From Eledone cirrhosa (Eukaryota): a DNA stretch of 64,000 bases. Under the pieces are notes generated by a model. The model saw only the letters and a list, made by a program, of their open reading frames with translations. It ran no database searches and had not been told where the DNA came from. The stretch's first letter is position 1. Each line of letters starts with the position of its first letter. The DNA lies in assembly GCA_964016885.1 (NCBI GenBank), contig OZ024740.1:279558001-279622000 (forward strand), written 5' to 3'. The position numbers were made by a program, and so were the translations under genes. This document shows positions 1 to 64,000 of this stretch, piece by piece.

Positions 1-404
1 TTTGGGTGATCCATTTTTTATTTGGGGGATCCATTTTTTATTTGGGTGATCCATTTTTTATTTGGGTGATCCATTTTTTATTTGGGGGATCCATTTTTTA
101 TTTGGGTGATCCATTTTTTATTTGGGGGATCCATTTTTTATTTGGAGGATCATTTTTTATTTGGGTGATCCATTTTTTATTTGGGGGGATCTATTTTTTA
201 TTTGGGTGATCCATTTTTTATTTGGGTGATCCATTTTTTATTTGGGTGATCCATTTTTTATTTGGTGGATCCATTTTTTATTTGGGAGATCCATTTTTAT
301 TTGGGGGTCCATTTTTTTGGGGGTGATCCATTTTCCATTTGGGTGATCCATTTTGTATTTGGGTGATCCATTTTTTATTTGAGGGATCCATTTTTTATTT
401 GATG

Positions 405-1426
405 GTTCTTCCAAATAAAAAATGGATCACCCAAATAAAAAAATGATCCCCCAAATAAAAAATGGATCACCCAAATAAAAAATGGATCACCCAAATAAAA
501 AATAGATCCGCCAAATAAAAAATGGATCCCCCAAATAAAAATGGATCCCCCAAATAAAAAATGGATCACTCAAATAAAAAATGGAACACCCAAATAAAAA
601 ATGGATCCCCCAAATAAAAAATGGATCCCCCAAATAAAAAATGGATCACCCAAATAAAAAATGGATCCCCCAAATAAAAAATGGATCACCCAAATAAAAA
701 CTGGATCCCCCAAATAAAAAATGGATCACCCAAATAAAAAATGGATCCCCCAAATAAAAAATGGATCCCCCAAATAAAAAATGGATCACCCAAATAAAAA
801 ATGGATCCCCCAAATAAAAAATGGATCACCCAAATAAAAACTGGATCCCCCAAATAAAAAATGGATCACCCAAATAAAAAATGGATCCCCCAAATAAAAA
901 ATGGATCACCCAAATAAAAAATGGATCCCCCAAATAAAAAATGGATCCCCCAAATAAAAAATGGATCCCCCAAATAAAAAATGGATCCCCCAAATAAAAA
1001 ATGGATCACCCAAATAAAAAATGGATCACCCAAATAAAAAATGGATCACCCAAATAAAAAATGCATCCTCCAAATAAAAAATGGATCACCCAAATAAAAA
1101 AAGATCCTAGCAAATAAAAAATGGATCACCCAAATACAAAATGGATCACGCAAATAAAAAATGGATCCCCCAAATAAAAAATGGATCCCCCAAATAAAAA
1201 ATGGATCCCCCAAATAAAAAATGGATCACCCAAATAAAAAATGGATCACCCAAATAAAAAATGGATCACCCAAATAAAAAATGGATCGCCCAAATAAAAA
1301 ATGGATCCCCCAAATAAAAAATGGATAGCCCAAATAAAAAATGGATACCCCAAATAAAAAATGGATCCCCCAAATAAAAAATGGATCACCCAAATAAAAA
1401 ATTGTTCACCCAAATAAAAAATGGAT
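405..1426 (-). repeat. ~1.0-kb reverse-oriented satellite block (family carrying the GATCCTAGC variant)
   Basis: Starts at TTTGATGGTTCTTCCAAA (~398-415) and ends at AAAAAATGGATCCCTTTTTT (~1416-1435). Carries the rare variant AAGATCCTAGCAAAT at ~1101. Homologous blocks lie at ~13800-14780, 22098-23100, 24293-25295 and 26526-27528. Confidence 0.93.
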
Positions 1427-2814
1427 CCCTTTTTTATTTAGCGGATCCATTTTTTATTTCGGTGATCCATTTTTTATTTGGTGGATCCATTTTTAATTTG
1501 GGGGATCCATTTTTTATTTGGGTGATCCATTTTTTATTTGGGGGATCCATTTTTTATTTGAGGGATCAATTTTTTATTTGGGTGATCCATTTTTTATTTG
1601 GGTGATCCATTTTTTATTTGGTGATCCATTTTTTATTTGGGGGATCCATTTTTTATTTGGGTGATCGATTTTTTATTTGGGTGATCCATTTTTTATTTGG
1701 GGGATCCATTTTTTATTTGGGTGATCCATTTTTTATTTGGGGGATCCATTTTTTATTTGGGCGATCCATTTTTTATTTGGGGGATCCATTTTTTATTTGG
1801 GGGATCCATTTTTTATTTGGGGGATCCATTTTATATTTGGGTGATCCATTTTTTATTTGGGTGATCCATTTTCTATTTGGGGGATCCATTTTTTATTTGG
1901 GGGATCCATTTTTTATTTGGGGGATCCATTTTTTATTTGAGGGTCCATTTTTTGGGGGGTGATCCATTTTTTATTTTTTGGATCCATTTTTTATTTGGGT
2001 GATCCATTTTTTATTTGGGTGATCCATTTTCTATTTGGGTGATACATTTTTTATTTGGGTGATCCATTTTTTATTTGGGTGATCCATTTTTTATTTGTGG
2101 GATCCTATTTTTATTTGGGCGATCCATTTTTTATTTGGGGGATTCATTTTTTATTTGGGTGATCCATTTTTTATTTGGGGTATCCATTTTTAATTTGGGT
2201 GATCCATTTTTTATTTGGGTGATCCATTTTTTATTTGGTGGATCCATTTTTAATTTGGGGGATCCATTTTTTATTTGGGTGATCCATTTTTTATTTGGGG
2301 GATCCATTTTTTATTTGGGGGATCAATTTTTTATTTGGGTGATCCATTTTTTATTTGGGTGATCCATTTTTTATTTGGTGATCCATTTTTTATTTGGGTG
2401 ATCGATTTTTTATTTGGGTGATCTATTTTTTATTTGGGGTATCCATTTTTAATTTGGGTGATCCATTTTTTATTTGGGTGATCCATTTTTTATTTGGGTG
2501 ATCCATTTTTTATTTGAGTGATCCATTTTTTATTTGGGGGATCCATTTTTTATTTGGGTGATCCATTTTTTATTTGGGGGATCCATTTTTTATTTGGGGG
2601 ATCCATTTTTTATTTGGGGGATCCATTTTTTATTTGGGGGATCCATTTTTTATTTGGGGGATCCATTTTATATTTGGGTGATCCATTTTTTATTTGGGTG
2701 ATCCATTTTTTATTTGGGGGATCCATTTTTTATTTGGGGGATCCATTTTTTATTTGGGTGATCCATTTTTTATTTGAGCGATCCATTCTTCTTTATTTGA
2801 GGGTTCCATTTTTT

Positions 2815-2890
2815 AAAAAATGGATCACCCAAATAAAAAATGGATCCCCCAAATAAAAAATGGTTCCCCCAAATAAATGGTTCCCTCAAA
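2815..2890 (-). repeat. 76-bp micro-inversion flanked by a ~42-bp direct duplication (copies at 5977-6052 and 9139-9214)
   Basis: Left junction CCATTTTTT|AAAAAATGG, right junction CCCTCAAA|TTTTTATTTG. Both flanks read TTTGA(G/A)CGATCCATTCTTCTTTATTTGAGGGTT. Confidence 0.9.
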
Positions 2891-3399
2891 TTTTTATTTG
2901 AACGATCCATTCTTCTTTATTTGAGGGTTTCATTTTTTATTTGGGTGATCCATTTTTTATTTTGGTGATCCATTTTTTATTTGGGGGATCCATTTTTTAT
3001 TTGGGGGATCCATTTTTGATTTGGGTGATCCATTTTTTATTTGGGTGATCCATTTTTTATTTGGGTGATGCATTTTTTATTTGGGGGAACCATTTTTTAT
3101 TTGGGGGATCCATTTTTTATTTGGGTGATCCATTTTTTATTTGGGTGATCCATTTTTTATTTGGTTGATCCATTTTTTATTTGGTTGATCCATTTTTTAT
3201 TTGGGTGATCCATTTTTTATTTGGGGGATCCATTTTTCATTTGGGTGATCCATTTTTTATTTGGGTGATCCATTTTTTATTTGGGGGCCCATTTTTTATT
3301 TGGGTGAGCCATTTTTTATTTGGGGGATCCATTTTTTATTTGGGTGATCCATTTTTTATTTGGGTGATCCATTTTTTATTTGGGGGATCCATTTTTTAT

Positions 3400-5080
3400 T
3401 TGGGTGATCCATTTTTTATTTGGGAGATCCATCAAATAAAAAATGGATCCCCCAAATAAAAATCGGATCACCATATAAAAAATGGATCACACAAATAAAA
3501 AATGTATCCCCCAAATAAAAAATGGATCACCCAAATAAAAACTGGATCCCCCAAATAAAAAATGGATCACCCAAATAGATAATGTATCCCCCAAATAAAA
3601 AATGGATCCCTCAAATAAAAAATGGATCCCCCAAATAAAAAAGGGATCCATTTTTTATTTGGGTGATCCATTTTTTTATTTGGGTGATCCATTTTTTATT
3701 TGGGGGATCCATTTTTTATTTGGGTGATCCATTTTTTATTTGGGTCATCCATTTTTTATTTGGAGGATCCATTTTTTATTTGGGTGATCCATTTTTTATT
3801 TGGGTGATCCATTTTTTATTTGGGGGATCCATTTTTTATTTGGGTGATCCATTTTTTATTTGAATGATCCATTTTTTTATTTGGGTGATCCATTTTTTAT
3901 TTGGGGGATCCATTTTTTATTTGGGTGATCCATTTTTTATTTGGGGGATCCATTTTTTATTTGGGTGATCCATTTTTTATTTGGGTGATCCATTTTTTAT
4001 TGGGGGGATCCATTTTTTATTTGGGTGATCCATTTTTTATTTGAGTGATCCATTCTTTATTTGAGGTATCCATTTTTTATTTGGGTGATTCATTTTTCAT
4101 TTTGGTGATCCATTTTTTATTTGGGGGATCCATTTTTTATTTGGGCGATCCATTTTTTATTTGGCTGATCCAGTTTTTATTTGGGTGATCCATTTTTTAT
4201 TTGGGTGATACATTTTTTATTTGGGGGATCCATTTTTTATTTGGGGGATCCATTTTTTATTTGGGAGATCCATCAAATAAAAAATGGATCCCCCAAATAA
4301 AAATCGGATCACCATATAAAAAATGGATCACCCAAATAAAAAATGGATCCCCCAAATAAAAAATGGATCACCCAAATAAAAACTGGATCCCCCAAATAAA
4401 AAATGGATCACCCAAATAGATAATGTATCCCCCAAATAAAAAATGGATCCCTCAAATAAAAAATGGATCCCCCAAATAAAAAAGGGATCCATTTTTTATT
4501 TGGGTGATCCATTTTTTTATTTGGGTGATCCATTATTTATTTGGGGGATCCATTTTTTATTTGGGTGATCCATTTCTTATTTGGGTCATCCATTTTTTAT
4601 TTGGAGGATCCATTTTTTATTTGGGTGATCCATTTTTTATTTGGGTGATCCATTTTTTATTTGGGGGATCCATTTTTTATTTGGGTGATCCATTTTTTAT
4701 TTGAATGATCCATTTTTTTATTTGGGTGATCCATTTTTTATTTGGGGGATCCATTTTTTATTTGGGTGATCCATTTTTTATTTGGGGGATCCATTTTTTA
4801 TTTGGGTGATCCATTTTTTATTTGGGTGATCCATTTTTTATTGGGGGGATCCATTTTTTATTTGGGTGATCCATTTTTTATTTGAGTGATCCATTCTTTA
4901 TTTGAGGTATCCATTTTTTATTTGGGTGATTCATTTTTCATTTGGGTGATCCATTTTTTATTTGGGGGATCCATTTTTTATTTGGGCGATCCATTTTTTA
5001 TTTGGCTGATCCAGTTTTTATTTGGGTGATCCATTTTTTATTTGGGTGATACATTTTTTATTTGGGGGATCCATTTTTTA
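3400..5080 (+). repeat. 841-bp tandem duplication nested inside the 3,162-bp unit
   Basis: Junction GATCs at 3426 and 4267. Near-identical ORFs at 3663 and 4504. Shared variants TTTGAATGATCC, TTTGAGGTATCC and GGCTGATCCAG recur at about the same offset. Confidence 0.92.
3426..3648 (-). repeat. Short inverted cassette (~11 monomers); copies at 4267-4489, 6588-6810, 7429-7651, 9750-9972 and 10591-10813
   Basis: Bounded by TTTGGGAGATCCATCAAA and AAAAAAGGGATCCATTTTTT. Internal markers are AAAATCGGATCACCATATAAAA and AAATAGATAATGTATCC. Confidence 0.93.
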
Positions 5081-8000
5081 TTTGGGTGATTCATTTTTTA
5101 TTTGGGTGATCCATTTTTTATGTTTTGGATCCATTTTTTATTTGGGGGATCCATTTTTTATTTGGGTGATCCATTTTTTATTTGGGTGATCCATTTTTTA
5201 TTTGGAGGATCCATTTTTTATTTGGGTGATCGAATTTTTATTTGGAGGATGCATTTTTTATTTGGGTGATCCATTTTTTATTTGGGTGATCAATTTTTTA
5301 TTTGGGTGATCCATTTTTTATTTGGGTGATCAATTTTTTATTTGGGGGATCCATTTTTTATTTGGGTGATCCATTTTTTATTTGGGTGTCCATTTTTTAT
5401 TTGGGTGATCCATTTTTTATTTGGGGGATCCATTTTTTATTTGGGGGATCCATTTTTTATTTGGGTGATCCATTTTTTATTTGGGTGATCCATTTTTATT
5501 TGGGTGATCCATTTTTTATTTGGGTGATCCATTTTTTATTTGGGGGATCCATTTTTTATTTGGGTGTTCCATTTGTTATTTGGGTGATCCATTTTTTATT
5601 TGGGGGTCCATTTTTTATTTGGGTGATCCATTTTTTATTTGGGGGATCCATTTTTTATTTGGGGGATCCATTTTTTATTTGGGTGATCCATTTTTTATTT
5701 GGGGATTCATTTTTTATTTGGGCGATCCATTTTTTATTTGGGTGATCCATTTTTTATTTGGGTGATCCATTTTTTATTTGGGTGATCCATTTTTTATTTG
5801 GAGGATCCATTTTTTATTTGGGGAGCCATTTTTTATTTGGGGATCCATTTTTTATTTGGGTGATCCATTTTTTATTTGGGGGATCCATTTTTTATTTGGG
5901 GGATCCATTTTTTATTTGGGGGATCCATTTTTTATTTGAGCGATCCATTCTTCTTTATTTGAGGGTTCCGTTTTTTAAAAAATGGATCACCCAAATAAAA
6001 AATGGATCCCCCAAATAAAAAATGGTTCCCCCAAATAAATGGTTCCCTCAAATTTTTATTTGAACGATCCATTCTTCTTTATTTGAGGGTTCCATTTTTT
6101 ATTTGGGTGATCCATTTTTTATTTTGGTGATCCATTTTTTATTTGGGGGATCCATTTTTTATTTGGGGGATCCATTTTTGATTTGGGTGATCCATTTTTT
6201 ATTTGGGTGATCCATTTTTTATTTGGGTGATGCATTTTTTATTTGGGGGAACCATTTTTTATTTGGGGGATCCATTTTTTATTTGGGTGATCCATTTTTT
6301 ATTTGGGTGATCCATTTTTTATTTGGTTGATCCATTTTTTATTTGGTTGATCCATTTTTTATTTGGGTGATCCATTTTTTATTTGGGGGATCCATTTTTC
6401 ATTTGGGTGATCCATTTTTTATTTGGGTGATCCATTTTTTATTTGGGGGCCCATTTTTTATTTGGGTGAGCCATTTTTTATTTGGGGGATCCATTTTTTA
6501 TTTGGGTGATCCATTTTTTATTTGGGTGATCCATTTTTTATTTGGGGGATCCATTTTTTATTTGGGTGATCCATTTTTTATTTGGGAGATCCATCAAATA
6601 AAAAATGGATCCCCCAAATAAAAATCGGATCACCATATAAAAAATGGATCACACAAATAAAAAATGTATCCCCCAAATAAAAAATGGATCACCCAAATAA
6701 AAACTGGATCCCCCAAATAAAAAATGGATCACCCAAATAGATAATGTATCCCCCAAATAAAAAATGGATCCCTCAAATAAAAAATGGATCCCCCAAATAA
6801 AAAAGGGATCCATTTTTTATTTGGGTGATCCATTTTTTTATTTGGGTGATCCATTTTTTATTTGGGGGATCCATTTTTTATTTGGGTGATCCATTTTTTA
6901 TTTGGGTCATCCATTTTTTATTTGGAGGATCCATTTTTTATTTGGGTGATCCATTTTTTATTTGGGTGATCCATTTTTTATTTGGGGGATCCATTTTTTA
7001 TTTGGGTGATCCATTTTTTATTTGAATGATCCATTTTTTTATTTGGGTGATCCATTTTTTATTTGGGGGATCCATTTTTTATTTGGGTGATCCATTTTTT
7101 ATTTGGGGGATCCATTTTTTATTTGGGTGATCCATTTTTTATTTGGGTGATCCATTTTTTATTGGGGGGATCCATTTTTTATTTGGGTGATCCATTTTTT
7201 ATTTGAGTGATCCATTCTTTATTTGAGGTATCCATTTTTTATTTGGGTGATTCATTTTTCATTTTGGTGATCCATTTTTTATTTGGGGGATCCATTTTTT
7301 ATTTGGGCGATCCATTTTTTATTTGGCTGATCCAGTTTTTATTTGGGTGATCCATTTTTTATTTGGGTGATACATTTTTTATTTGGGGGATCCATTTTTT
7401 ATTTGGGGGATCCATTTTTTATTTGGGAGATCCATCAAATAAAAAATGGATCCCCCAAATAAAAATCGGATCACCATATAAAAAATGGATCACCCAAATA
7501 AAAAATGGATCCCCCAAATAAAAAATGGATCACCCAAATAAAAACTGGATCCCCCAAATAAAAAATGGATCACCCAAATAGATAATGTATCCCCCAAATA
7601 AAAAATGGATCCCTCAAATAAAAAATGGATCCCCCAAATAAAAAAGGGATCCATTTTTTATTTGGGTGATCCATTTTTTTATTTGGGTGATCCATTATTT
7701 ATTTGGGGGATCCATTTTTTATTTGGGTGATCCATTTCTTATTTGGGTCATCCATTTTTTATTTGGAGGATCCATTTTTTATTTGGGTGATCCATTTTTT
7801 ATTTGGGTGATCCATTTTTTATTTGGGGGATCCATTTTTTATTTGGGTGATCCATTTTTTATTTGAATGATCCATTTTTTTATTTGGGTGATCCATTTTT
7901 TATTTGGGGGATCCATTTTTTATTTGGGTGATCCATTTTTTATTTGGGGGATCCATTTTTTATTTGGGTGATCCATTTTTTATTTGGGTGATCCATTTTT

Positions 8001-11000
8001 TATTGGGGGGATCCATTTTTTATTTGGGTGATCCATTTTTTATTTGAGTGATCCATTCTTTATTTGAGGTATCCATTTTTTATTTGGGTGATTCATTTTT
8101 CATTTGGGTGATCCATTTTTTATTTGGGGGATCCATTTTTTATTTGGGCGATCCATTTTTTATTTGGCTGATCCAGTTTTTATTTGGGTGATCCATTTTT
8201 TATTTGGGTGATACATTTTTTATTTGGGGGATCCATTTTTTATTTGGGTGATCCATTTTTTATTTGGGTGATCCATTTTTTATGTTTTGGATCCATTTTT
8301 TATTTGGGGGATCCATTTTTTATTTGGGTGATCCATTTTTTATTTGGGTGATCCATTTTTTATTTGGAGGATCCATTTTTTATTTGGGTGATCGAATTTT
8401 TATTTGGAGGATGCATTTTTTATTTGGGTGATCCATTTTTTATTTGGGTGATCAATTTTTTATTTGGGTGATCCATTTTTTATTTGGGTGATCAATTTTT
8501 TATTTGGGGGATCCATTTTTTATTTGGGTGATCCATTTTTTATTTGGGTGTCCATTTTTTATTTGGGTGATCCATTTTTTATTTGGGGGATCCATTTTTT
8601 ATTTGGGGGATCCATTTTTTATTTGGGTGATCCATTTTTTATTTGGGTGATCCATTTTTATTTGGGTGATCCATTTTTTATTTGGGTGATCCATTTTTTA
8701 TTTGGGGGATCCATTTTTTATTTGGGTGTTCCATTTGTTATTTGGGTGATCCATTTTTTATTTGGGGGTCCATTTTTTATTTGGGTGATCCATTTTTTAT
8801 TTGGGGGATCCATTTTTTATTTGGGGGATCCATTTTTTATTTGGGTGATCCATTTTTTATTTGGGGATTCATTTTTTATTTGGGCGATCCATTTTTTATT
8901 TGGGTGATCCATTTTTTATTTGGGTGATCCATTTTTTATTTGGGTGATCCATTTTTTATTTGGAGGATCCATTTTTTATTTGGGGAGCCATTTTTTATTT
9001 GGGGATCCATTTTTTATTTGGGTGATCCATTTTTTATTTGGGGGATCCATTTTTTATTTGGGGGATCCATTTTTTATTTGGGGGATCCATTTTTTATTTG
9101 AGCGATCCATTCTTCTTTATTTGAGGGTTCCGTTTTTTAAAAAATGGATCACCCAAATAAAAAATGGATCCCCCAAATAAAAAATGGTTCCCCCAAATAA
9201 ATGGTTCCCTCAAATTTTTATTTGAACGATCCATTCTTCTTTATTTGAGGGTTCCATTTTTTATTTGGGTGATCCATTTTTTATTTTGGTGATCCATTTT
9301 TTATTTGGGGGATCCATTTTTTATTTGGGGGATCCATTTTTGATTTGGGTGATCCATTTTTTATTTGGGTGATCCATTTTTTATTTGGGTGATGCATTTT
9401 TTATTTGGGGGAACCATTTTTTATTTGGGGGATCCATTTTTTATTTGGGTGATCCATTTTTTATTTGGGTCATCCATTTTTTATTTGGTTGATCCATTTT
9501 TTATTTGGTTGATCCATTTTTTATTTGGGTGATCCATTTTTTATTTGGGGGATCCATTTTTCATTTGGGTGATCCATTTTTTATTTGGGTGATCCATTTT
9601 TTATTTGGGGGCCCATTTTTTATTTGGGTGAGCCATTTTTTATTTGGGGGATCCATTTTTTATTTGGGTGATCCATTTTTTATTTGGGTGATCCATTTTT
9701 TATTTGGGGGATCCATTTTTTATTTGGGTGATCCATTTTTTATTTGGGAGATCCATCAAATAAAAAATGGATCCCCCAAATAAAAATCGGATCACCATAT
9801 AAAAAATGGATCACACAAATAAAAAATGTATCCCCCAAATAAAAAATGGATCACCCAAATAAAAACTGGATCCCCCAAATAAAAAATGGATCACCCAAAT
9901 AGATAATGTATCCCCCAAATAAAAAATGGATCCCTCAAATAAAAAATGGATCCCCCAAATAAAAAAGGGATCCATTTTTTATTTGGGTGATCCATTTTTT
10001 TATTTGGGTGATCCATTTTTTATTTGGGGGATCCATTTTTTATTTGGGTGATCCATTTTTTATTTGGGTCATCCATTTTTTATTTGGAGGATCCATTTTT
10101 TATTTGGGTGATCCATTTTTTATTTGGGTGATCCATTTTTTATTTGGGGGATCCATTTTTTATTTGGGTGATCCATTTTTTATTTGAATGATCCATTTTT
10201 TTATTTGGGTGATCCATTTTTTATTTGGGGGATCCATTTTTTATTTGGGTGATCCATTTTTTATTTGGGGGATCCATTTTTTATTTGGGTGATCCATTTT
10301 TTATTTGGGTGATCCATTTTTTATTGGGGGGATCCATTTTTTATTTGGGTGATCCATTTTTTATTTGAGTGATCCATTCTTTATTTGAGGTATCCATTTT
10401 TTATTTGGGTGATTCATTTTTCATTTGGGTGATCCATTTTTTATTTGGGGGATCCATTTTTTATTTGGGCGATCCATTTTTTATTTGGCTGATCCAGTTT
10501 TTATTTGGGTGATCCATTTTTTATTTGGGTGATACATTTTTTATTTGGGGGATCCATTTTTTATTTGGGGGATCCATTTTTTATTTGGGAGATCCATCAA
10601 ATAAAAAATGGATCCCCCAAATAAAAATCGGATCACCATATAAAAAATGGATCACCCAAATAAAAAATGGATCCCCCAAATAAAAAATGGATCACCCAAA
10701 TAAAAACTGGATCCCCCAAATAAAAAATGGATCACCCAAATAGATAATGTATCCCCCAAATAAAAAATGGATCCCTCAAATAAAAAATGGATCCCCCAAA
10801 TAAAAAAGGGATCCATTTTTTATTTGGGTGATCCATTTTTTTATTTGGGTGATCCATTATTTATTTGGGGGATCCATTTTTTATTTGGGTGATCCATTTC
10901 TTATTTGGGTCATCCATTTTTTATTTGGAGGATCCATTTTTTATTTGGGTGATCCATTTTTTATTTGGGTGATCCATTTTTTATTTGGGTGATCCATTTT

Positions 11001-12425: not shown

Positions 12426-12648
12426 GATCCATCAAATAAAAAATGGATCCCCCAAATAAAAAATGGATCCCTCAAATAAAAAATGGATCACCCAAATAAA
12501 AAATGGATCACCCAAATAAAAAATGTATCCCCAAATAAAAAATGGATCCCCCAAATATAAAATGGATCCCACAAATAAAAAATGGATCACCCAAATAAAA
12601 AATGGATCCCCCAAATAAAAAATGGATCACCCAAATAAAAAAGGGATC
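12426..12648 (-). repeat. Short inverted cassette with the same junctions but different internal variants
   Basis: GGGAGATCCATCAAA at ~12422 and AAGGGATCCA at 12641. It lacks the TCGGATCACCATAT and AAATAGATAA markers. Confidence 0.88.
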
Positions 12649-14780: not shown

Positions 14781-16927
14781 CCTTTTTTATTTAGCGGATC
14801 CATTTTTTATTTCGGTGATCCATTTTTTATTTGGTGTATCCATTTTTAATTTGGGGGATCCATTTTTTATTTGGGTGATCCATTTTTTATTTGGGGGATC
14901 CATTTTTTATTTGGGGGATCAATTTTTTATTTGGGTGATCCATTTTTTATTTGGGTGATCCATTTTTTATTTGGTGATCCATTTTTTATTTGGGGGATCC
15001 ATTTTTTATTTGGGTGATCGATTTTTTATTTGGGTGATCCATTTTTTATTTGGGGGATCCATTTTTTATTTGGGTGATCCATTTTTTATTTGGGTGATCC
15101 ATTTTTTATTTGGGTGATCCATTTTTTATTTGGGGGATCCATTTTTTATTTGGGGGATACATTTATTATTTGGGGGATCCATTTTTATTTGGGTGATCCA
15201 TTTTTTATTTGGGTGATCCATTTTTTATTTGGAGGATCTTTTTTTTATTTGGGTGATCCATTTTTTATTTGGAGGATGCATTTTTTATTTGGGTTATCCA
15301 TTTTTTATTTGGGTGATCCATTTTTTATTTGGGGGATCCATTTTTTATTTGGGGGATCCATCTTTTATTTGTGGGATCCATTTTTTATTTGGGGGATCCA
15401 TTTTTTATTTGGGGGATCCATTTTTTATTTGGGTGATCCATTTTTTATTTGGGGGATCCAGTTTTTATTTGGGTGATCCATTTTTTATTTGGGGGATCCA
15501 TTTTTTATTTGGGTGATCCACTTTTTATTTGGGGGATCCATTTTTTATTTGGGGATCCATTTTTTATTTGGGTGATCCATTTTTTATTTGGGGGATCCAG
15601 TTTTTATTTGGGTGATCCATTTTTTATTTGGGGGATCCATTTTTTATTTGGGTGATCCATTTTTTATTTGGGGGATCCATTTTTTATTTGGGGGATCCAT
15701 TTTTTATTTGGGTGTTCCATTTTTTATTTGGGGGATCAATTTTTTATTTGGGTGATCCATTTTTATTTGGGTGATCCATTTTTTATTTGGTGATCCATTT
15801 TTTATTTGGGGGATCCATTTTTTATTTGGGTGATCGATTTTTTATTTGGGTGATCTATTTTTTATTTGGGGTATCCATTTTTAATTTGGGTGATCCATTT
15901 TTTATTTGGGTGATCCATTTTTTATTTGGGGGATCCATTTTTTATTTGGGTGATCCATTTTTTATTTGGGGGATCCATTTTTTATTTGGGCAATCCATTT
16001 TTTATTTGGGGGATCCATTTTTTATTTGGGGGATCCATTTTTTATTTGGGGGATCCATTTTTTATTTGGGGGATTCATTTTATATTTGGGTGATCCATTT
16101 TTTATTTGGGTGATCCATTTTCTATTTGGGGGATCCATTTTTTATTTGGGGGATCCATTTTTTATTTGGGGGATCCATTTTTTATTTGGGGGTCCATTTT
16201 TTGGGGGGTGATCCATTTTTTATTTTTTGGATCCATATTTTATTTGGGTGATCCATTTTTTATTTGGGTGATCCATTTTCTATTTTGGTGATACATTTTT
16301 TATTTGGGTGATCCATTTTTTATTTGGGTGATACATTTTTTATTTGTGGGATCCTATTTTTATTTGGGGGTTCCATTTTTTATTTGAGGGATCCATTTTT
16401 TATTTGGGGGATGCATTTTTTATTTGGGTGATCCATTTTTTATTTGGGGGATCCATTTTTTATTTGGGGGATCCATTTTTTATTTGGGGGATCCATTTTT
16501 TATTTGGGGGATCCATTTTTTATTTGGGGGATCCATTTTTTATTTAGGTGATCCATTTTTTATTTGGGTGATCCATTTTTTATTTGGGGATACATTTTTT
16601 ATTTGGCTGATCCATTTTTTATTTGGGTGATCCATTTTTTATTTGGGGTATCCATTTTTTATTTGGGTGATCGATTTTTTATTTGGGTGATCCATTTTTT
16701 ATTTGGTTGATCCATTTTTATTTGGGGGATACATTTTTTATTTGGGTGATCCATTTTTTATTTGTGGGATCCATTTTTTATTTGGGTGATCCATTTTTTA
16801 TTTGGTTGATCCATTTTTTATTAGGGGTATCCATTTTTAATTTGGGTGATCCATTTTTTATTTGGGTGATCCATTTTTTATTTGAGGGATCCATTTTTTA
16901 TTTGGGGAATCCATTTTTTATTTGATG

Positions 16928-17929
16928 GATCTCCCAAATAAAAAATGGATCACCCAAATAAAAAAATTGATCCCCCAAATAAAAAATGGATCACCCAAAT
17001 AAAAAATGGATCACCCAAATAAAAAATAGATCCCCCAAATAAAAAATGGATCCCCCAAATAAAAATGGATCCCCCAAATAAAAAATGGATCACTCAAATA
17101 AAAAATGGAACACCCAAATAAAAAATGGATCCCCCTAATAAAAAATGGATCACCCAAATAAAAAATGGATCCCCCAAATAAAAAATGGATCACCCAAATA
17201 AAAACTGGATCCCCCAAATAAAAAATGGATCACCCAAATAAAAAATGGATCCCCAAATAAAAAATGGATCCCCCAAATAAAAAGTGGATCACCCAAATAA
17301 AAAATGGATCCCCCAAATAAAAAATGGATCACCCAAATAAAAACTGGATCCCCCAAATAAAAAATGGATCACCCAAATAAAAAATGGATCCCCCAAATAA
17401 AAAATGGATCACCCAAATAAAAAATGGATCCCCCAAATAAAAAATGGATCCCACAAATAAAAGATGGATCCCCCAAATAAAAAATGGATCCCCCAAATAA
17501 AAAATGGATCACCCAAATAAAAAATGGATCACCCAAATAAAAAATGGATCACCCAAATAAAAAATGGATCGACCAAATAAAAAATGGATCCCCCAAATAA
17601 AAAATGGATCGCCCAAATAAAAAATGGATCCCCCAAATAAAAAATGGATCACCCAAATAAAAAATGGATCACACAAATAAAAAATGGATCCCCCAAATAA
17701 AAAATGGATCACCCAAATAAAAAATGGATCCCCCAAATAAAAAATGGATCACCAAATAAAAAATGGATCACCCAAATAAAAAATGGATCGCCCAAATAAA
17801 AAATTGATCACCCAAATAAAAAATGGATCACCCAAATAAGAAATGGATCCCCCAAATAAAAAATGGATCACCCAAATAAAAAATGGATCGCCCAAATAAA
17901 AAATTGTTCACCCAAATAAAAAATGGATC
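16928..17929 (-). repeat. ~1.0-kb reverse-oriented block; part of it is an inverted copy of ~15320-15720
   Basis: Starts at TTTGATGGATCTCCCAAA at 16921. ORFs 15449..15655(+) and 17150..17356(-) translate identically. Confidence 0.88.
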
Positions 17930-18629
17930 CCTTTTTTATTTAGCGGATCCATTTTTTATTTCGGTGATCCATTTTTTATTTGGTGGATCCATTTTTTATT
18001 TGGGGGTCCATTTTTTATTTGGGTGATCCATTTTTTATTTGGGTGATCCATTTTTAATTTGGGTGATCCGTTTTTTATTTGGGTGATCCATTTTTTATTT
18101 GGGTGATCCATTTTTTATTTGGGTGATCCATTTTTTATTTGGGGGATCCATTTTTTATTTGGGTGATCTATTTTTTATTTGGGGGATCCATTTTTTATTT
18201 GGGCGATCCATTTTTTATTTGGGGGATCCATTTTTTATTTGGGGGATCCATTTTTTATTTGGGGGATCCATTTTTTATTTGGGGGATCTATTTTATATTT
18301 GGGTGATCCATTTTTTATTTGGGTGATCCATTTTTTATTTGGGGGATCCATTTTTTATTTGGGGGATCCATTTTTTATTTGGGTGATCCATTTTTTATTT
18401 GGGGGATCTATTTTTTATTTGGAGGATTTTTTTTATTTGGGTGATCCATTTTTTATTTGGGGGGATCTATTTTTTATTTGGGTGATCCATTTTTTATTTG
18501 GGTGATCCATTTTTTATTTGGGTGATCCATTTTTTATTTGATGGATCCATTTTTTATTTGGGGGATCCATTTTTTATTTGGGGGTCCATTTTTTTTGGGG
18601 TGATCCATTTTCCATTTGGGTGATCCATT

Positions 18630-27780: not shown

Positions 27781-29789
27781 GGTGATCCATTTTTTATTTG
27801 GGGGATCCATTTTTTATTTGGGCGATCCATTTTTTATTTGGGGGATCCATTTTTTATTTGGGGGATCCATTTTTTATTTGGGGGATCCATTTTTTATTTG
27901 GGGGATCCATTTTATATTTGGGTGATCCATTTTTTATTTGGGTGATCCATTTTCTATTTGGGGGATCCATTTTTTATTTGGGGGATCCATTTTTTATTTG
28001 GGGGATCCATTTTTTATTTGGGGGTCCATTTTTTGGGGGGTGATCCATTTTTTATTTTTTGGATCCATTTTTTATTTGGGTGATCCATTTTTTATTTGGG
28101 TGATCCATTTTCTATTTGGGTGATACATTTTTTATTTGGGTGATCCATTTTTTATTTGGGTGATCCATTTTTTATTTGTGGGATCCTATTTTTATTTGGG
28201 AGATCCATTTTTTATTTGGGGGATCCATTTTTTATTTGGGTGATCCATTTTTTATTTGGGGTATCCATTTTTAATTTGGGTGATCCATTTTTTTTTGGGG
28301 TGATCCATTTTTTATTTGGTGGATCCATTTTTAATTTGGGGGATCCATTTTTTATTTGGGTGATCCATTTTTTATTTGGGGGAGCCATTTTTTATTTGGG
28401 GGATCAATTTTTTATTTGGGTGATCCATTTTTTATTTGGGTGATCCATTTTTTATTTGGTGATCCATTTTTTATTTGGGTGATCGATTTTTTATTTGGGT
28501 GATCTATTTTTTATTTGGGGTATCCATTTTTAATTTGGGTGATCCATTTTTTATTTGGGTGATCCATTTTTTATTTGGGTGATCCATTTTTTATTTGAGT
28601 GATCCATTTTTTATTTGGGGGATCCATTTTTTATTTGGGTGATCCATTTTTTATTTGGGGGATCCATTTTTTATTTGGGCGATCCATTTTTTATTTGGGG
28701 GATCCATTTTTTATTTGGGGGATCCATTTTATATTTGGGTGATCCATTTTTTATTTGGGTGATCCATTTTTTATTTGGGGGATCCATTTTTTATTTGGGG
28801 GATCCATTTTTTATTTGGGTGATCCATTTTTTATTTGGGGGATCTATTTTTTATTTGGAGGATTTTTTTTATTTGGGTGATCCATTTTTTATTTGGGGGG
28901 ATCTATTTTTTATTTGGGTGAACCATTTTTTATTTGGGTGATCCATTTTTTATTTGGGTGATCCATTTTTTATTTGATGGATCCATTTTTTATTTGGGGG
29001 ATCCATTTTTTATTTGGGGGTCCATTTTTTTGGTGGTGATCCATTTTCCATTTGGGTGATCCATTTTTTATTTTTTGGATCCATTTTTTATTTGGGCGAT
29101 CCATTTTTTATTTGGGTGATCCATTTTTTGTTTGGGTGACCCATTTTTTATTTGGGTGATCCATTTTTTATTTGTGGGATCCTATTTTTATTTGGGGGTT
29201 CCATTTTTTATTTGTGGGATCCATTTTTTATTTGGGGGATGCATTTTTTATTTGGGTGATCCATTTTTTATTTGGGGGATCCATTTTTTATTTGGGGGAT
29301 CCATTTTTTATTTGGGGGATCCATTTTTTATTTGGGGGATCCATTTTTTATTTGGGGGATCCATTTTTTATTTGGGGGATCCATTTTTTATTTGGGGGAT
29401 CCATTTTTTATTTAGGTGATCCATTTTTTATTTGGGTGATCCATTTTTTATTTGGGGGATACATTTTTTATTTGGCTGATCCATTTTTTATTTGGGTGAT
29501 CCATTTTTTATTTGGGGGATCCATTTTTTATTTGGGTGATCCATTTTTTATTTGGGTGATCCATTTTTTATTTGGGTGATCCATTTTTTATTTGGGGGAT
29601 ACATTTTTTATTTGGGTGATCCATTTTTTATTTGTGGGATCCATTTTTTATTTGGGTGATCCATTTTTTATTTGGTTGATCCATTTTTTATTAGGGGTAT
29701 CCATTTTTAATTTGGGTGATCCATTTTTTATTTGGGTGATCCATTTTTTATTTGAGGGATCCATTTTTTATTTGGGGAATCCATTTTTT

Positions 29790-40200: not shown

Positions 40201-40397
40201 ACATTTTTTATTTGGGTGATCCATTTTTTATTTGTGGGATCCATGTTTTATTTGGGTGATCCATTTTTTATTTGGGTGATCCATTTTTTATTTGTGGGAT
40301 CCATGTTTTATTTGGGTGATCCATTTTTTATTTGGTTGATCCATTTTTTATTAGGGGGATCCATTTTTTATTTGGGGGATCCATTTTTTATTTGATG

Positions 40398-56598: not shown

Positions 56599-57489
56599 CC
56601 TTTTTTATTTAGCGGATCCATTTTTTATTTCGGTGATCCATTTTTTATTTGGGGGATCCATTTTTTATTTGGGTGATCCATTTTTTATTTGGGGGATCCA
56701 TTTTTTATTTGGGTGATCCATTTTTTATTTGGGGGATCCATTTTTTATTTGGGCGATCCATTTTTTATTTGGGTGATACATTTTTTATTTGGGGGATCCA
56801 TTTTTTATTCGGGTGATCCATTTTTTATTTGGGGGATCCATTTTTTATTTGGGCAATCCATTTTTTATTTGGGGGATCCATTTTTTATTTGGTGGATCCA
56901 TTTTTTTATTTGGGGGATCCATTTTTTATTTGGGGGATCCATTTTTTATTTGGGGGATCCATTTTATATTTGGGTGATCCATTTTTTATTTGGGTGATCC
57001 ATTTTTTATTTGGGTGATCCATTTTTTATTTGGGGGATCAATTTTTTATTTGGGTGTTCCATTTTTTATTTGGGTGATCCATTTTTTATTTGGTGATCCA
57101 TTTTTCATTTGGGTGATCCATTTTTTATTTGGTGATCCATTTTTTATTTGGGGGATCCATTTTTTATTTGGGTGATCCATTTTTCATTTGGGTGATCCAT
57201 TTTTTATTTGGGGTATCCATTTTTAATTTGGGTGATCCATTTTTTATTTGGGTGATCCATTTTTTATTTGGGTGATCCATTTTTTATTTGGGTGATCCAT
57301 TTTTTATTTGGGGGATCCATTTTTTATTTTGGCGATCCATTTTTTATTTGGGGGATCCATTTTTTATTTGGTGGATCCATTTTTTATTTGGGTGATCCAT
57401 TTTTTATTTGGTGGATCCATTTTTTATTTGGGTGATCCATTTTTTATTTGGGTGATCCATTTTTTATTTGGGGGATACATTTTTTATTT

Positions 57490-60400
57490 GGGTGATCCAT
57501 TTTTTATTTGTGGGATCCATGTTTTATTTGGGTGATCCATTTTTTATTTGGGTGATCCATTTTTTATTTGTGGGATCCATGTTTTATTTGGGTGATCCAT
57601 TTTTTATTTGGTTGATCCATTTTTTATTAGGGGGATCCATTTTTTATTTGGGGGATCCATTTTTTATTTGATGGATCTCCCAAATAAAAAATGGATCACC
57701 CAAATAAAAAATTGATCCCCCAAATAAAAAATGGATCACCCAAATAAAAATGGATCACCCAAATAAAAAATAGATCCCCCAAATTAAAAATGGATCCCCC
57801 AAATAAAAAATGGATCCCCCAAATAAAAAATGGACCACCCAAATAAAAAATGGATCCCCAAATAAAAAATGGATCATCCAAATAAAAACTGGATCCTCCA
57901 AATAAAAAATGGATCACCGAAGTAAAAAATGGATCCCCCAAATAAAAAATGGATCCCCCAAATAAAAAATGGATCCCCCAAATAAAAAATGGATCACCCA
58001 AATAAAAAATGGATCCCCAAATAAAAAATGGATCCTCCAAATAAAAAATGGATCCTCCAAATAAAAAATGGATCCCCCAAATAAAAAATGGATCCCCCAA
58101 ATAAAAAATGGATCACCCAAATAAAAAATGGATCACCCAAATAAAAAATGGATCGCCCAAATAAAAAATGGATCGCCCAAATAAAAAATGGATCGCCCAA
58201 ATAAAAAATGGATCCCCCAAATAAAAATAGATCCCCCAAATAAAAAATGGATCCCCCAAATAAAAAATGGATCACCCAAATAAAAAATGGACCCCCAAAT
58301 AAAAAATGGATCACCCAAATAAAAATGGATCACCCAAATAAAAAATGGATCCCCCAAATAATAAAAAGAAACACCCAAATAAAAAATGGATCACCCAAAT
58401 AAAAAATGGATCCTCCAAATAAAAAATGGATTACCCAAATAAAAAAAAATCCTCCAAATAAAAAATGGATCACCCAAATAAAAAATGGATCACCCAAATA
58501 AAAAATGGATCCCCCAAATAAAAAATGGATCCCCCAAATAAAAAACGGATCCCCCAAATAAAAAATGGATCACCCAAATAAAAAATGGATCACCCAAATA
58601 AAAAATGGATCACCCAAATAAAAATTGGATCGCCCAAATAAAAAATGGATCCCCCAAATAAAAAATGGATCGCCCAAATAAAAAATGGATCCCCCAAATA
58701 AAAAATGGATCACCCAAATAAAAAATGGATCACCCAAATAAAAAATGGATCCCCCAAATAAAAAATGGATCACCCAAATAAAAAATGGATCCCTCAAATA
58801 AAAAATGGATCACCCAAATAAAAAATGGATCACCCAAATAAAAAATGGATCCCCCAAATAAAAAATTGATCACCCAAATAAAAAATGGATCACCCAAATA
58901 ACAAATGGATCCCCCAAATAAAAAATGGTTCACCCAAATAAAAAATGGATCACCCAAATAAAAAATGGATCCCCCCAAATAAAAAATGGATCACCCAAAT
59001 AAAAAATGGATCCCTTTTTTATTTAGCGGATCCATTTTTTATTTCGGGGATCCATTCTTTATCTGGGGGATCCATTTTTTATTTGGGTGATCCATTTTTT
59101 ATTTGGGGGATCCATTTTTTATTTCGGTGATCCATTTTTTATTTGGGTGATCCATTTTTTATTTGGGGTTCCATTTTTTATTTGGGTGATCCATTTTTTA
59201 TTTGGTGGATCCATTTTTTATTTGGGGGATCCATTTCTTATTTGGGTGATCCATTTTTTATTTGGGTGATCAATTTTTTATTTGGGCGATCCATTTTTTA
59301 TTTGGGTGATCCATTTTTTATTTGGTGATCCATTTTTTATTTGGGGGATCCATTTTTTATTTGGGTGATCCATTTTTTATTTGGGTGATCCATTTTTTAT
59401 TTGGGTGATCCATTTTTTATTTGGGTGATCCATTTTTTATTTGGGGGATCCATTTTTTATTTGGGTGATCCATTTTTTATTTGGGGGATCCATTTTTTAT
59501 TTGGGGGATCCATTTTTTATTTGGTGGATCCATTTTTTATTTGGGGGATCCATTTTTTATCTGGGGGATCCATTTTTTTGGGGGGGATCCATTTTATATT
59601 TGGGTGATCCATTTTTTATTTGGGTGATCCATTTTTTATTTGGGGGATCCATTTTTTATTTGGGTGATCCATTTTTTATTTGGGCGATCCATTTTTTATT
59701 TGGGTGATCCAATTTTTTATTTGGGTGATCCATTTTTTATTTGGGGGATCAATTTTTTATTTGGGTGATCCATTTTTTATTTGGGTGATCCATTTTTTAT
59801 TTGGTGATCCATTTTTTATTTGGGGGATCCATTTTTTATTTGGGTGATCCATTTTTTATTTGGGTGATCCATTTTTTATTTTGGGTATCCATTTTTAATT
59901 TGGGTGATCCATTTTTTATTTGGGTGATCCATTTTTTATTTGGGTGATCCATTTTTTATTTGGGTGATCCATTTTTTATTTGGGGGATCCATTTTTTATT
60001 TGGGTGATCCATTTTTTATTTAGGGGATCCATTTTTTATTTGGGCCATCCATTTTTTATTTGGGGGATCCATTTTTTATTTGGTGGATCCATTTTTTATT
60101 TGGGGGATCCATTTTTTATTTGGGGGATCCATTTTTTATTTTGGGGATCCATTTTATATTTGGGTGATCCATTTTTTATTTGGGTGATCCATTTTTTATT
60201 TGTGGGATCCATGTTTTATTTGGGTGATCCATTTTTTATTTGGGTGATCCATTTTTTATTTGTGGGATCCATGTTTTATTTGGGTGATCCATTTTTTATT
60301 TGGTTGATCCATTTTTTATTAGGGGGATCCATTTTTTATTTGGGGGATCCATTTTTTATTTGATGGATCTCCCAAATAAAAAATGGATCACCCAAATAAA

Positions 60401-62880
60401 AAATTGATCCCCCAAATAAAAAATGGATCACCCAAATAAAAATGGATCACCCAAATAAAAAATAGATCCCCCAAATTAAAAATGGATCCCCCAAATAAAA
60501 AATGGATCCCCCAAATAAAAAATGGACCACCCAAATAAAAAATGGATCCCCAAATAAAAAATGGATCATCCAAATAAAAACTGGATCCTCCAAATAAAAA
60601 ATGGATCACCGAAGTAAAAAATGGATCCCCCAAATAAAAAATGGATCCCCCAAATAAAAAATGGATCCCCCAAATAAAAAATGGATCACCCAAATAAAAA
60701 ATGGATCCCCAAATAAAAAATGGATCCTCCAAATAAAAAATGGATCCTCCAAATAAAAAATGGATCCCCCAAATAAAAAATGGATCCCCCAAATAAAAAA
60801 TGGATCACCCAAATAAAAAATGGATCACCCAAATAAAAAATGGATCGCCCAAATAAAAAATGGATCGCCCAAATAAAAAATGGATCGCCCAAATAAAAAA
60901 TGGATCCCCCAAATAAAAATAGATCCCCCAAATAAAAAATGGATCCCCCAAATAAAAAATGGATCACCCAAATAAAAAATGGACCCCCAAATAAAAAATG
61001 GATCACCCAAATAAAAATGGATCACCCAAATAAAAAATGGATCCCCCAAATAATAAAAAGAAACACCCAAATAAAAAATGGATCACCCAAATAAAAAATG
61101 GATCCTCCAAATAAAAAATGGATTACCCAAATAAAAAAAAATCCTCCAAATAAAAAATGGATCACCCAAATAAAAAATGGATCACCCAAATAAAAAATGG
61201 ATCCCCCAAATAAAAAATGGATCCCCCAAATAAAAAACGGATCCCCCAAATAAAAAATGGATCACCCAAATAAAAAATGGATCACCCAAATAAAAAATGG
61301 ATCACCCAAATAAAAATTGGATCGCCCAAATAAAAAATGGATCCCCCAAATAAAAAATGGATCGCCCAAATAAAAAATGGATCCCCCAAATAAAAAATGG
61401 ATCACCCAAATAAAAAATGGATCACCCAAATAAAAAATGGATCCCCCAAATAAAAAATGGATCACCCAAATAAAAAATGGATCCCTCAAATAAAAAATGG
61501 ATCACCCAAATAAAAAATGGATCACCCAAATAAAAAATGGATCCCCCAAATAAAAAATTGATCACCCAAATAAAAAATGGATCACCCAAATAACAAATGG
61601 ATCCCCCAAATAAAAAATGGTTCACCCAAATAAAAAATGGATCACCCAAATAAAAAATGGATCCCCCCAAATAAAAAATGGATCACCCAAATAAAAAATG
61701 GATCCCTTTTTTATTTAGCGGATCCATTTTTTATTTCGGGGATCCATTCTTTATCTGGGGGATCCATTTTTTATTTGGGTGATCCATTTTTTATTTGGGG
61801 GATCCATTTTTTATTTCGGTGATCCATTTTTTATTTGGGTGATCCATTTTTTATTTGGGGTTCCATTTTTTATTTGGGTGATCCATTTTTTATTTGGTGG
61901 ATCCATTTTTTATTTGGGGGATCCATTTCTTATTTGGGTGATCCATTTTTTATTTGGGTGATCAATTTTTTATTTGGGCGATCCATTTTTTATTTGGGTG
62001 ATCCATTTTTTATTTGGTGATCCATTTTTTATTTGGGGGATCCATTTTTTATTTGGGTGATCCATTTTTTATTTGGGTGATCCATTTTTTATTTGGGTGA
62101 TCCATTTTTTATTTGGGTGATCCATTTTTTATTTGGGGGATCCATTTTTTATTTGGGTGATCCATTTTTTATTTGGGGGATCCATTTTTTATTTGGGGGA
62201 TCCATTTTTTATTTGGTGGATCCATTTTTTATTTGGGGGATCCATTTTTTATCTGGGGGATCCATTTTTTGGGGGGGGATCCATTTTATATTTGGGTGAT
62301 CCATTTTTTATTTGGGTGATCCATTTTTTATTTGGGGGATCCATTTTTTATTTGGGTGATCCATTTTTTATTTGGGCGATCCATTTTTTATTTGGGTGAT
62401 CCAATTTTTTATTTGGGTGATCCATTTTTTATTTGGGGGATCAATTTTTTATTTGGGTGATCCATTTTTTATTTGGGTGATCCATTTTTTATTTGGTGAT
62501 CCATTTTTTATTTGGGGGATCCATTTTTTATTTGGGTGATCCATTTTTTATTTGGGTGATCCATTTTTTATTTTGGGAATCCATTTTTAATTTGGGTGAT
62601 CCATTTTTTATTTGGGTGATCCATTTTTTATTTGGGTGATCCATTTTTTATTTGGGTGATCCATTTTTTATTTGGGGGATCCATTTTTTATTTGGGTGAT
62701 CCATTTTTTATTTAGGGGATCCATTTTTTATTTGGGCCATCCATTTTTTATTTGGGGGATCCATTTTTTATTTGGTGGATCCATTTTTTATTTGGGGGAT
62801 CCATTTTTTATTTGGGGGATCCATTTTTTATTTTGGGGATCCATTTTATATTTGGGTGATCCATTTTTTATTTGGGTGAT
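57490..62880 (+). repeat. Higher-order repeat, 2,692-bp unit x2 (each ~1.34 kb reverse plus ~1.36 kb forward)
   Basis: Junction GATCs at 57674/60366 and 59009/61701. The ORF set 57696-59980 recurs at +2692. Confidence 0.94.
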
Positions 62881-63017
62881 CCATTTTTTATTTGGGGGAT
62901 CCATTTTTTATTTGGGTGATCCATTTTTTATTTGGGGGATCCATTTTTTATTTCGGTGATCCATTTTTTATTTGGGGGATCCATTTTTTATTTGGGGGTT
63001 CCATTTTTTATTTGGGG

Positions 63018-64000
63018 GATCCATCAAACAAAAAATGGATCACCCAAATAAAAAGTGGATCACCTAAATAAAAAATGGATCACCCAAATAAAAAATGGAT
63101 CCACCAAATAAAAAATGGATCCCCCAAATAAAAAATAGATCACACAAATAAAAAATGGATCCCCCAATTAAAAAATGGATCACCCAAATAAAAAATGGAT
63201 CACCCAAATAAAAAATGGATAACCCAAATAAAAAATGGATCCCCCAAATAAAAAATGGATCACCCAAATAAAAAATGGATCCCCCAAATAAAAAAGGGAT
63301 CCATTTTTTATTTGGGTGATCCATTTTTTATTTGGGGGATCCATTTTTTATTTGGCTTATCCATTTTTATTTGGGTGATCCATTTTTTATTTGGGTGATC
63401 CATTTTTTATTTGGGTGATTCATTTTTTATTTGGGTGATCCATTTTTAATTTTTGGGATCCATTTTTTATTTGGTGGATCCATTTTTTATTTGGGTGATC
63501 CATTTTTTATTTGGGTGATCCATTTTTTATTTGGGTGATCCATTTTTTATTTGATGGATCCCCAAATAAAAAATGGAACCCCCAAATAAAAAATGGATCC
63601 CCCAAATAAAAAATGGATCACCCAAATAAAAAATGGATCCCCCAAATAAAAAATGGATCCCCCAAATAAAAAATGAATCCCTGAAATAAAAAATGGATCC
63701 CCCAAATAAAAAAGGGATCCATTTTTTATTTGGGTGATCCATTTTTTATTTGGGGGGATCCGTTTTTTATTTGGGCGATCCATTTTTTATTTGGGTGATC
63801 CATTTTTTATTTGGGTGATCCATTTTTTATTTGGGGGATCCATTTTTTATTTGGGCGATCCATTTTTTATTTGGGTGATCCATTTTTTATTTGGGGGATC
63901 CATTTTTTATTTGGGGGATCCATTTTTTATTTGGGGGATCCATTTTTTATTTACGGGATCCATTTTTTATTTGGGTGATCCATTTTTTATTTGGGGGATC
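63018..64000. repeat. Double short-inversion module (63018-63301 and 63557-63719), homologous to 45783-46464, 50811-51493 and 47660-48360
   Basis: Shares the markers CATCAAACAAAAAA, GGCTTATCC, GAATCCCTGAAAT, GGGGGGATCCGTTT and TTTACGGGATCC. Confidence 0.88.

What the first reader, a model, noticed from the sequence alone, without database searches (positions are those of the whole stretch)
398..63725. Nearly all inversions use just two stereotyped junctions, each centred in register on the monomer's GATC dyad
Seen: forward-to-reverse switches read TTTG-GGAGATCCAT-CAAA (e.g. 3419-3436) or its exact reverse complement TTTG-ATGGATCTCC-CAAA (e.g. 16921-16938), with minor derivatives such as ATGGTTCTTC, GGGGATCCAT and ATGGATCCC. 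Reverse-to-forward switches read AAAAAA-GGGATCCA-TTTTTT (3637-3656) or its reverse complement AAAAAA-TGGATCCC-TTTTTT (1416-1435). These cover 38 of the 41 blocks. In both, the symmetry axis falls in GATC, so the 20-bp GATC lattice continues across the inversion. Inference: either one ancestral inversion at the GGATCC palindrome was amplified many times (the simplest reading), or there is recurrent site-preferential strand exchange at this dyad, resembling a recombination core site.
Basis: partly seen in the sequence, partly recalled or inferred. Interest (0 to 1): 0.72.

Follow-up and report, generated by a model that had tools for sequence, protein, structure and literature searches.

The report
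One old satellite inversion, copied widely
A 20-letter DNA repeat flips direction 82 times in this window and 76 of the flips use two junction sequences, likely because one old inversion was copied and re-flipped as the array grew, not because an enzyme keeps cutting at the GATC site; the same repeat on another chromosome showed no flip in 160 kb read.

Summary
In detail: 38 of 41 reverse blocks are bounded by two junction types centred on GATC. The copies are inherited, not made afresh. 73 of 82 window junctions lie in exact paralogous stretches of at least 200 bp. Three of four flank markers per junction class tested never change side of the asymmetric core. All 240 exact copies of the commonest junction form lie in neighbouring arrays on C1. 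A 1.18-Mb array of the same monomer on C5 showed 0 switches in 160 kb holding 5,582 dyads. The two junctions are the exact reciprocal products of one inversion between an ordinary monomer and a rare variant with a perfect 10-bp palindromic core, sharing 8 bp, so the shared register is one fact, not two. Later large inversions are seamless. About 11 rarer junction types exist, most off-register. The layout is described in Tribolium satellites, and the scan noted it before on other DNA of this genome.

The parts
1..64000 (.). 20-bp satellite array (10-bp core with GATC dyad plus 10-bp T-rich spacer; two main monomer variants), 41 reverse blocks of 64-1895 bp; part of a 224-kb array at G000:C1:279,476,347-279,700,123
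3419..3436 (+). Junction J1, plus orientation (forward core, then reverse spacer). 14 in window: 11 with the rare A at core position 3, 3 with G
16921..16938 (-). Junction J1, minus orientation. 24 in window: 15 exact, 5 with further substitutions, 4 with a 9-bp core
3637..3656 (+). Junction J2, plus orientation (palindromic centre interrupted by one substitution); 19 in window
1416..1435 (-). Junction J2, minus orientation; 19 in window
2805..2824 (.). Junction J3: a separate forward-to-reverse switch in the T/A tract, 10 bp from GATC, lattice kept; copies also near 5976 and 9138
2887..2900 (.). Junction J4: off-register reverse-to-forward switch (5-bp arms round a 4-base loop), partner of J3; 3 in window, 9 in the array
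18541..18550 (+). H monomer: ordinary forward monomer whose core is the perfect palindrome ATGGATCCAT, with no inversion at it; 18 paralogous places carry the one-step neighbour GTGGATCCAT and 1 the ordinary core. The kind of monomer that likely founded J1 and J2
28977..28986 (+). Second copy of the H monomer
2814..9137 (+). Direct duplication, period 3,162 bp, 99.94% identical ungapped, carrying six junctions per unit: shows junctions being copied as passengers

Best explanation
The two junction types are likely the inherited scars of one old inversion in a 20-bp satellite, copied hundreds of times as the array grew and likely re-oriented by later seamless exchanges between existing forward and reverse blocks. 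Step 1 (inferred): a rare monomer with a perfect 10-bp palindromic core (H) shares 8 bp with an ordinary monomer read on the other strand; a microhomology-mediated inversion or double template switch between the two, a few monomers apart, gave J1 and the perfect-centre form of J2. Step 2 (shown as products; mechanism inferred): tandem duplication and unequal exchange multiplied the cassette, lengthened its blocks and carried it to other arrays; point changes gave the sub-lineages of each junction. Step 3 (product shown; mechanism inferred): once forward and reverse blocks coexist, fold-back or homologous template switching between them makes larger inverted copies without any new junction, which puts J1 and J2 in both orientations. 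No function is shown.
For: In silico inversion between an ordinary and an H monomer yields exactly the two junctions found (121 and 106 exact 30-bp copies in the fetched regions); inversion between two ordinary monomers yields a left junction with 0 copies there and in the genome. H monomers exist uninverted: 3 in the 224-kb array, 2 in a 10-kb stretch of C195, 410 of 562 parsed monomers in a sibling array at C1 295.44-295.55 Mb. The J1 + perfect J2 pair encloses blocks of only about 35-78 bp over much of the C1 296.3-296.47 Mb stretch. Descent: the rare core A is in 215 of 410 J1 copies as the exact core against 18 of 8,138 ordinary monomers; a neighbouring marker is in 127 of 149 copies of a second J1 lineage; 16 of 171 J1 flank haplotypes (77 copies) occur in two arrays and 12 (51 copies) in both orientations; 73 of 82 window junctions lie in exact paralogs of 200 bp or more, median 970 bp. 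Confinement: 240 of 240 exact J1 copies lie in fetched C1 stretches. Control: C5 interior, 160 kb of satellite, 5,582 dyads, 0 switches against 381 switches in 224 kb here; 5,809 of the genome's 6,058 reverse-strand exact monomers are in the fetched stretches. Seamless re-inversion: an inverted duplication with arms of about 8 kb, axis near C1 279,669,710, 0-4 mismatches per 400 bp over most of its length, with no new junction type.
Against: Flanks turn over within 1-3 monomers: J1 falls into three sub-lineages, and two of them (238 and 149 copies) share no rare flank marker, so two or three founder events at H monomers cannot be excluded. The direction H to junction is inferred; H could also be left by collapse of a J1/J2 pair, although the window's H copies sit where paralogs have a one-step variant. 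In this window J2 is never the perfect form predicted by step 1 (38 of 38 interrupted), so one more substitution is needed; three copies with a full forward core fit a blunt inversion at the core edges instead. One J2 marker (an extra T in a run) is on the other side in 5 of 51 copies. Only 160 kb of the 1.18-Mb C5 array were read.
Confidence: 0.8

Rival explanations
1. Repeated but rare microhomology events: H monomers arise now and then, and each can seed the same J1/J2 pair, so the sub-lineages are two or three independent inversions that were then amplified.
For: H monomers occur uninverted; the two large J1 lineages share no rare flank marker; about 4 of 12 founder junction types lie in the dyad register (hand count; P = 0.002 at 1/20 per event, 0.09 at 3/20); one perfect-centre forward-to-reverse junction formed in the H-rich sibling array.
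Against: The H-rich array, with hundreds of such cores, has only 1 of 27 switches at the palindrome; one point change per lineage is enough to derive the sub-lineages from one ancestor; perfect and interrupted J2 forms share the same flank markers.
Confidence: 0.12
2. An enzyme cuts or exchanges strands at the GATC dyad again and again, like a site-specific recombinase or a nuclease making staggered cuts at the core edges.
For: 960 of 1,025 switches in five regions are J1 or J2 by a strict pattern; the core occurs in both orientations; a sibling satellite without the dyad showed 0 switches in six 10-kb stretches.
Against: 0 switches over 5,582 dyads on C5; markers never stand alone on the wrong side in 127, 128, 134 and 39 marked copies; rare lineage markers mark most copies; no perfect G/C-centred product; the window is satellite from end to end and holds no gene.
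Confidence: 0.03
3. The junction-bearing units are kept or favoured because the inverted arms can form hairpins with a role in chromatin or centromere structure, as proposed for Tribolium; interrupted centres would be favoured where arms are long.
For: 80-base stretches over J1 and J2 fold to -26.4 and -24.9 kcal/mol against -4.8 for plain array; perfect-centre J2 has a shorter arm of 110 bp or less in 171 of 187 copies, interrupted J2 in 16 of 260; 43 of 49 against 7 of 101 flank haplotypes.
Against: Any inversion junction folds well by construction; the largest array of the family does without junctions; the arm-length pattern follows lineages and regions, so it may rest on very few events; no chromatin or centromere data here.
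Confidence: 0.05
4. Assembly or read artefact (fold-back chimeric reads).
Against: Arms are not mirror copies (median 12 bp to the first mismatch); junctions carry heritable point variants shared between arrays and contigs.
Confidence: 0.01

Closest known systems
Macro-dyad symmetries with conserved inversion sites in Tribolium madens TmSat1/TmSat2 (PMC13081366; abstract, passages and first part of Discussion read)
   Same: Satellite arrays that change monomer orientation often, with two predominant, highly conserved inversion types present in thousands of copies, and intermingling with a second satellite (seen here at C1 295.2-295.4 and 296.1-296.2 Mb).
   Different: There the unit is about 110 bp, subarrays are kilobases long, the inversion subunits are 11-24% diverged and the arrays lie on all chromosomes; here the unit is 20 bp, blocks are 35 bp to a few kb, the junctions are in-register single breakpoints explained by 8-bp microhomology, and an uninverted megabase array of the same monomer serves as a control. 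The paper says such symmetries were documented only in Tribolium.
Tribolium freemani TfSat01/TfSat03 (PMC12581902; passages read)
   Same: Conserved inversion points found on non-homologous chromosomes; here the same J1 and J2 lineages stand on C1, at one end of the C5 array and on C195.
   Different: The authors think the switches too pervasive for inversion alone and suggest function or circular-DNA spread; here founder plus amplification accounts for the data.
Chionographis japonica Chio1/Chio2 centromeric satellites (PMC10264360; passages read)
   Same: Short monomers (23 and 28 bp) with an internal dyad, arrays mixing forward and reverse orientation.
   Different: Those are CENH3-bound centromere units; the passages read give no junction sequences; no centromere evidence here.
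Fold-back inverted duplications with a spacer (PMC3907307; abstract and outline read)
   Same: The 8-kb inverted duplication beyond the window has near-identical arms and a non-mirrored spacer bounded by inverted homology.
   Different: There unique DNA and short inverted microhomology; here long inverted satellite blocks supply the homology, so no scar is left.

Membership tests
Satellite arrays with macro-dyad symmetry and conserved inversion sites (Tribolium type) | Tandem satellite whose arrays contain inverted subarrays | tested here: met
   41 reverse blocks in the window, 381 switches in the 224-kb array
Satellite arrays with macro-dyad symmetry and conserved inversion sites (Tribolium type) | Few, highly conserved inversion-site types in many copies | tested here: met
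   960 of 1,025 switches are J1 or J2
Satellite arrays with macro-dyad symmetry and conserved inversion sites (Tribolium type) | Subarrays of several to tens of kilobases | tested here: not met
   Reverse blocks in the window 64-1,895 bp; only the later inverted duplication reaches about 8 kb per arm
Satellite arrays with macro-dyad symmetry and conserved inversion sites (Tribolium type) | Intermingling with a second satellite through fixed transitions | tested here: inconclusive
   Not in the window's array; present in sister arrays with 22-bp and 15-bp repeats
Satellite arrays with macro-dyad symmetry and conserved inversion sites (Tribolium type) | (Peri)centromeric location on many chromosomes | not testable with these tools
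   Family seen on C1, C5 and C195 only; no chromatin data
Site-specific inversion system (recombinase core site) | The core flips relative to fixed flanks or exchanges recurrently | tested here: not met
   Four flank markers never alone on the opposite side; a fifth, in a T run, in 5 of 51
Site-specific inversion system (recombinase core site) | Every intact site is a substrate | tested here: not met
   0 switches over 5,582 dyads on C5
Site-specific inversion system (recombinase core site) | Linked recombinase gene | tested here: inconclusive
   None in the window, which is all satellite; the genome was not searched for one
Site-specific inversion system (recombinase core site) | Orientation heterogeneity among reads of one individual | not testable with these tools

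The most novel reading that the evidence does not exclude
A two-step point mutation that perfects a monomer's internal palindrome turns a unidirectional satellite into a self-inverting one, and the founder junction must then lose its perfect centre before its arms can grow long: palindrome instability filters which junction lineages expand. The C1 arrays (inverted) and the C5 array (uninverted) would be a natural before-and-after pair for the origin of Tribolium-type macro-dyad satellites in a distant animal.
Probability: 0.12. Interest if true: 0.5.

Novelty: new member of a known kind. Interest (0 to 1): 0.22.

Why it matters
It shows that conserved inversion sites in a satellite need no function or enzyme: one base-resolved founder event, amplification and seamless re-inversion give the pattern, and an uninverted array of the same monomer is at hand as a control. 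That bears on the open proposal that conserved inversion sites of Tribolium satellites are functional. By itself it is an ordinary piece of satellite evolution.

Tried and rejected
Palindromic duplication centred on the junctions themselves: rejected, arms differ within a median 12 bp, and the longest stretch to a third mismatch is 96 bp. Crossover between two ordinary monomers in GGATCC as origin of J1: rejected. H monomers in the window as collapsed inversions: not favoured, paralogs carry a one-step variant. Automatic register values for rare junctions are shifted by small indels in neighbouring monomers; the 4-of-12 figure is a hand count, and mutated J1/J2 derivatives were set aside before it. 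Paper search for six motifs of the repeats: 0 papers; searches for the layout and for octopus satellites gave no description of this family. Rfam on L075: 0 matches; Pfam on a 50-residue frame in L075: 0 families. Earlier scan notes near the window: none shown. No tree was built; flank haplotypes were compared by marker counts instead.

Full report
Observation. The window is a 20-bp satellite from end to end: a 10-bp core with a GATC dyad and a 10-bp T-rich spacer, with two main variants (907 and 629 of 2,165 parsed monomers). A strand map gives 41 true reverse blocks and 82 switches. 38 blocks are bounded by junction J1 (forward core, then reverse spacer; or its reverse complement) and junction J2 (reverse spacer, core, forward spacer); 3 blocks have another pair, J3 and J4. 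The four quoted sequences are at the quoted places.

Context. The window is G000:C1:279,558,001-279,622,000 of a 3.0-Gb genome and lies in a 224-kb array with 381 switches. The family has 42,278 forward and 6,058 reverse exact monomers in the genome. I fetched 180 stretches (about 1.8 Mb): this array whole; sister arrays at C1 295.19-295.59 and 296.10-296.70 Mb; parts of an array on C5 at about 64.37-65.63 Mb; nine stretches of C195. In five contiguous regions 960 of 1,025 switches are J1 or J2 by a strict pattern; six more are mutated or deleted derivatives; the rest fall into about 11 rarer types.

Why both junctions are in register. In a periodic array a clean inversion puts both ends in the same register, so this is one coincidence (reasoning from the geometry). 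The dyad register has the longest run of identity between the monomer and its reverse complement, 6 bp for the G variant. But exchange between two ordinary monomers would leave a perfect G/C-centred palindrome as the forward-to-reverse junction, and that has 0 copies. The junction found needs a partner whose core is the perfect 10-bp palindrome ATGGATCCAT (H). Such monomers exist: twice in the window, uninverted, at a place where 18 paralogs carry a one-step variant; twice in 10 kb of C195; and as 410 of 562 parsed monomers in a sibling array at C1 295.44-295.55 Mb. Simulated inversion between an ordinary and an H monomer gives exactly J1 and the perfect-centre J2. That pair, enclosing about 35-78 bp, is the common cassette at C1 296.3-296.47 Mb and stands, reversed, at the far end of this array. 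The perfect J2 has 84 exact copies of the 32-base form in the genome. The window's J2 differs from it by one base and shares flank markers with it. The founder step is inferred, not shown; a blunt inversion at the core edges fits three J2 copies with a full forward core.

Inheritance. 73 of 82 window junctions lie in exact paralogous stretches of 200 bp or more (median 970 bp), and 2814-5975 is repeated at 99.94%. J1 has three sub-lineages of 238, 149 and 23 copies among 410 parsed in three regions (40 forward-to-reverse switches did not fit the parser). The exact core with the rare A is in 215 of 410 against 0.22% of ordinary monomers. 16 of 171 flank haplotypes occur in two arrays and 12 in both orientations. 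All 240 exact copies of the commonest form are inside the fetched C1 stretches. Junctions at one end of the C5 array and on C195 carry the same lineage markers. Against a single origin: the two large J1 lineages share no rare flank marker, because flanks turn over within a few monomers.

No recurrent exchange at the dyad. The C5 array interior gave 0 switches in 160 kb of satellite with 5,582 dyad-bearing monomers; a run of five monomers matched 277 times forward, and its 7 reverse matches are all on C1; 5,809 of 6,058 reverse monomers are accounted for in the fetched stretches, so the unread interior holds at most 249. Flank markers keep their side of the asymmetric core: 127 to 0, 134 to 0 and 39 to 0; a fourth is on its usual arm in 128 copies, on both arms in 20 of these and never alone on the other; a fifth, an extra T in a run, is 46 to 5. 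In the H-rich array the main junction (22 of 27) is off-centre and only 1 is at the palindrome: each array family amplifies its own founder junction. A sibling satellite without the dyad showed no switch in six 10-kb stretches, which fits either reading. About 4 of 12 founder types lie in the dyad register by hand count (P = 0.002 at 1/20, 0.09 at 3/20), a bias that short microhomology would give.

How both orientations arise. Beyond the window there is an inverted duplication with arms of about 8 kb round C1 279,669,710, with 0-4 mismatches per 400 bp over most of its length and a non-mirrored spacer. It flips J1 and J2 and adds no new junction type. Homologous fold-back between a forward and a reverse block is the likely route (inferred; compare PMC3907307, abstract).

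An unexplained pattern. Perfect-centre J2 has a shorter arm of 110 bp or less in 171 of 187 copies, interrupted J2 in 16 of 260; by flank haplotype 43 of 49 against 7 of 101. Longer, more perfect, spacer-less palindromes are less stable (PMC7999016, passages), so a filter is plausible, but the classes follow lineages and regions, 16 perfect copies have long arms, and the arms are imperfect anyway. It is kept as the novel case. Junction stretches fold far better than plain array, as any inversion junction must.

Comparison. Frequent orientation switches with two conserved inversion types are described for Tribolium madens (PMC13081366; abstract, passages, first part of Discussion) and T. freemani (PMC12581902; passages); mixed-orientation arrays of short dyad-bearing monomers for Chionographis (PMC10264360; passages). 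This array works like those but has much shorter blocks and no shown centromere role. Five paper searches found no description of this repeat family; the library lacks most subscription journals, and no supplements were read. Earlier notes of this scan reached the same reading on other DNA of this genome, including the sister array and the seamless duplication; I had found both before reading them. New here are the H-monomer founder, the C5 control and the polarity test.

Verdict. Real, well explained, a new member of a known kind. Interest 0.22.

Noticed in passing
G000:C1:295.19-295.37 Mb and 296.10-296.21 Mb (L021-L024, L051-L060, L074, L080): A compound macro-repeat of about 2-4 kb: a 22-bp satellite, a short 15-bp repeat and the 20-bp satellite with J1 and J2, present as two similar clusters about 0.9 Mb apart.
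   Followed up: partly
L075 and L087-L095 (G000:C1:295.44-295.55 Mb): Sibling satellite dominated by monomers with a perfect 10-bp palindromic core, amplified as forward block, reverse block and a piece of non-satellite DNA. That piece looks like a SINE of octopod type and a mariner-like transposase fragment (both recalled; Rfam and Pfam gave no match).
   Followed up: partly
L063, L130-L134 (G000:C1:296.57-296.65 Mb); L141-L146, L101 (C5 64.37-64.44 Mb); L177-L178 (C195): A more diverged, G+C-richer 20-bp sibling without the GATC dyad borders the main family on three contigs; possibly the older form.
   Followed up: partly
G000:C1:279,661,371-279,678,059 (L016-L018): Recent inverted duplication, arms about 8 kb, spacer under 2 kb, no scar.
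   Followed up: yes
G000:C1:296,182,266 and paralogs (L022, L053-L059): One J1 lineage has the same rare marker on both arms and near-perfect mirror arms to 85-96 bp, which suggests arm-to-arm conversion.
   Followed up: partly
window 1-64000: J1 and J2 change from mostly plus to mostly minus orientation between about 13 kb and 27 kb of the window, the mark of a larger seamless inversion boundary.
   Followed up: no
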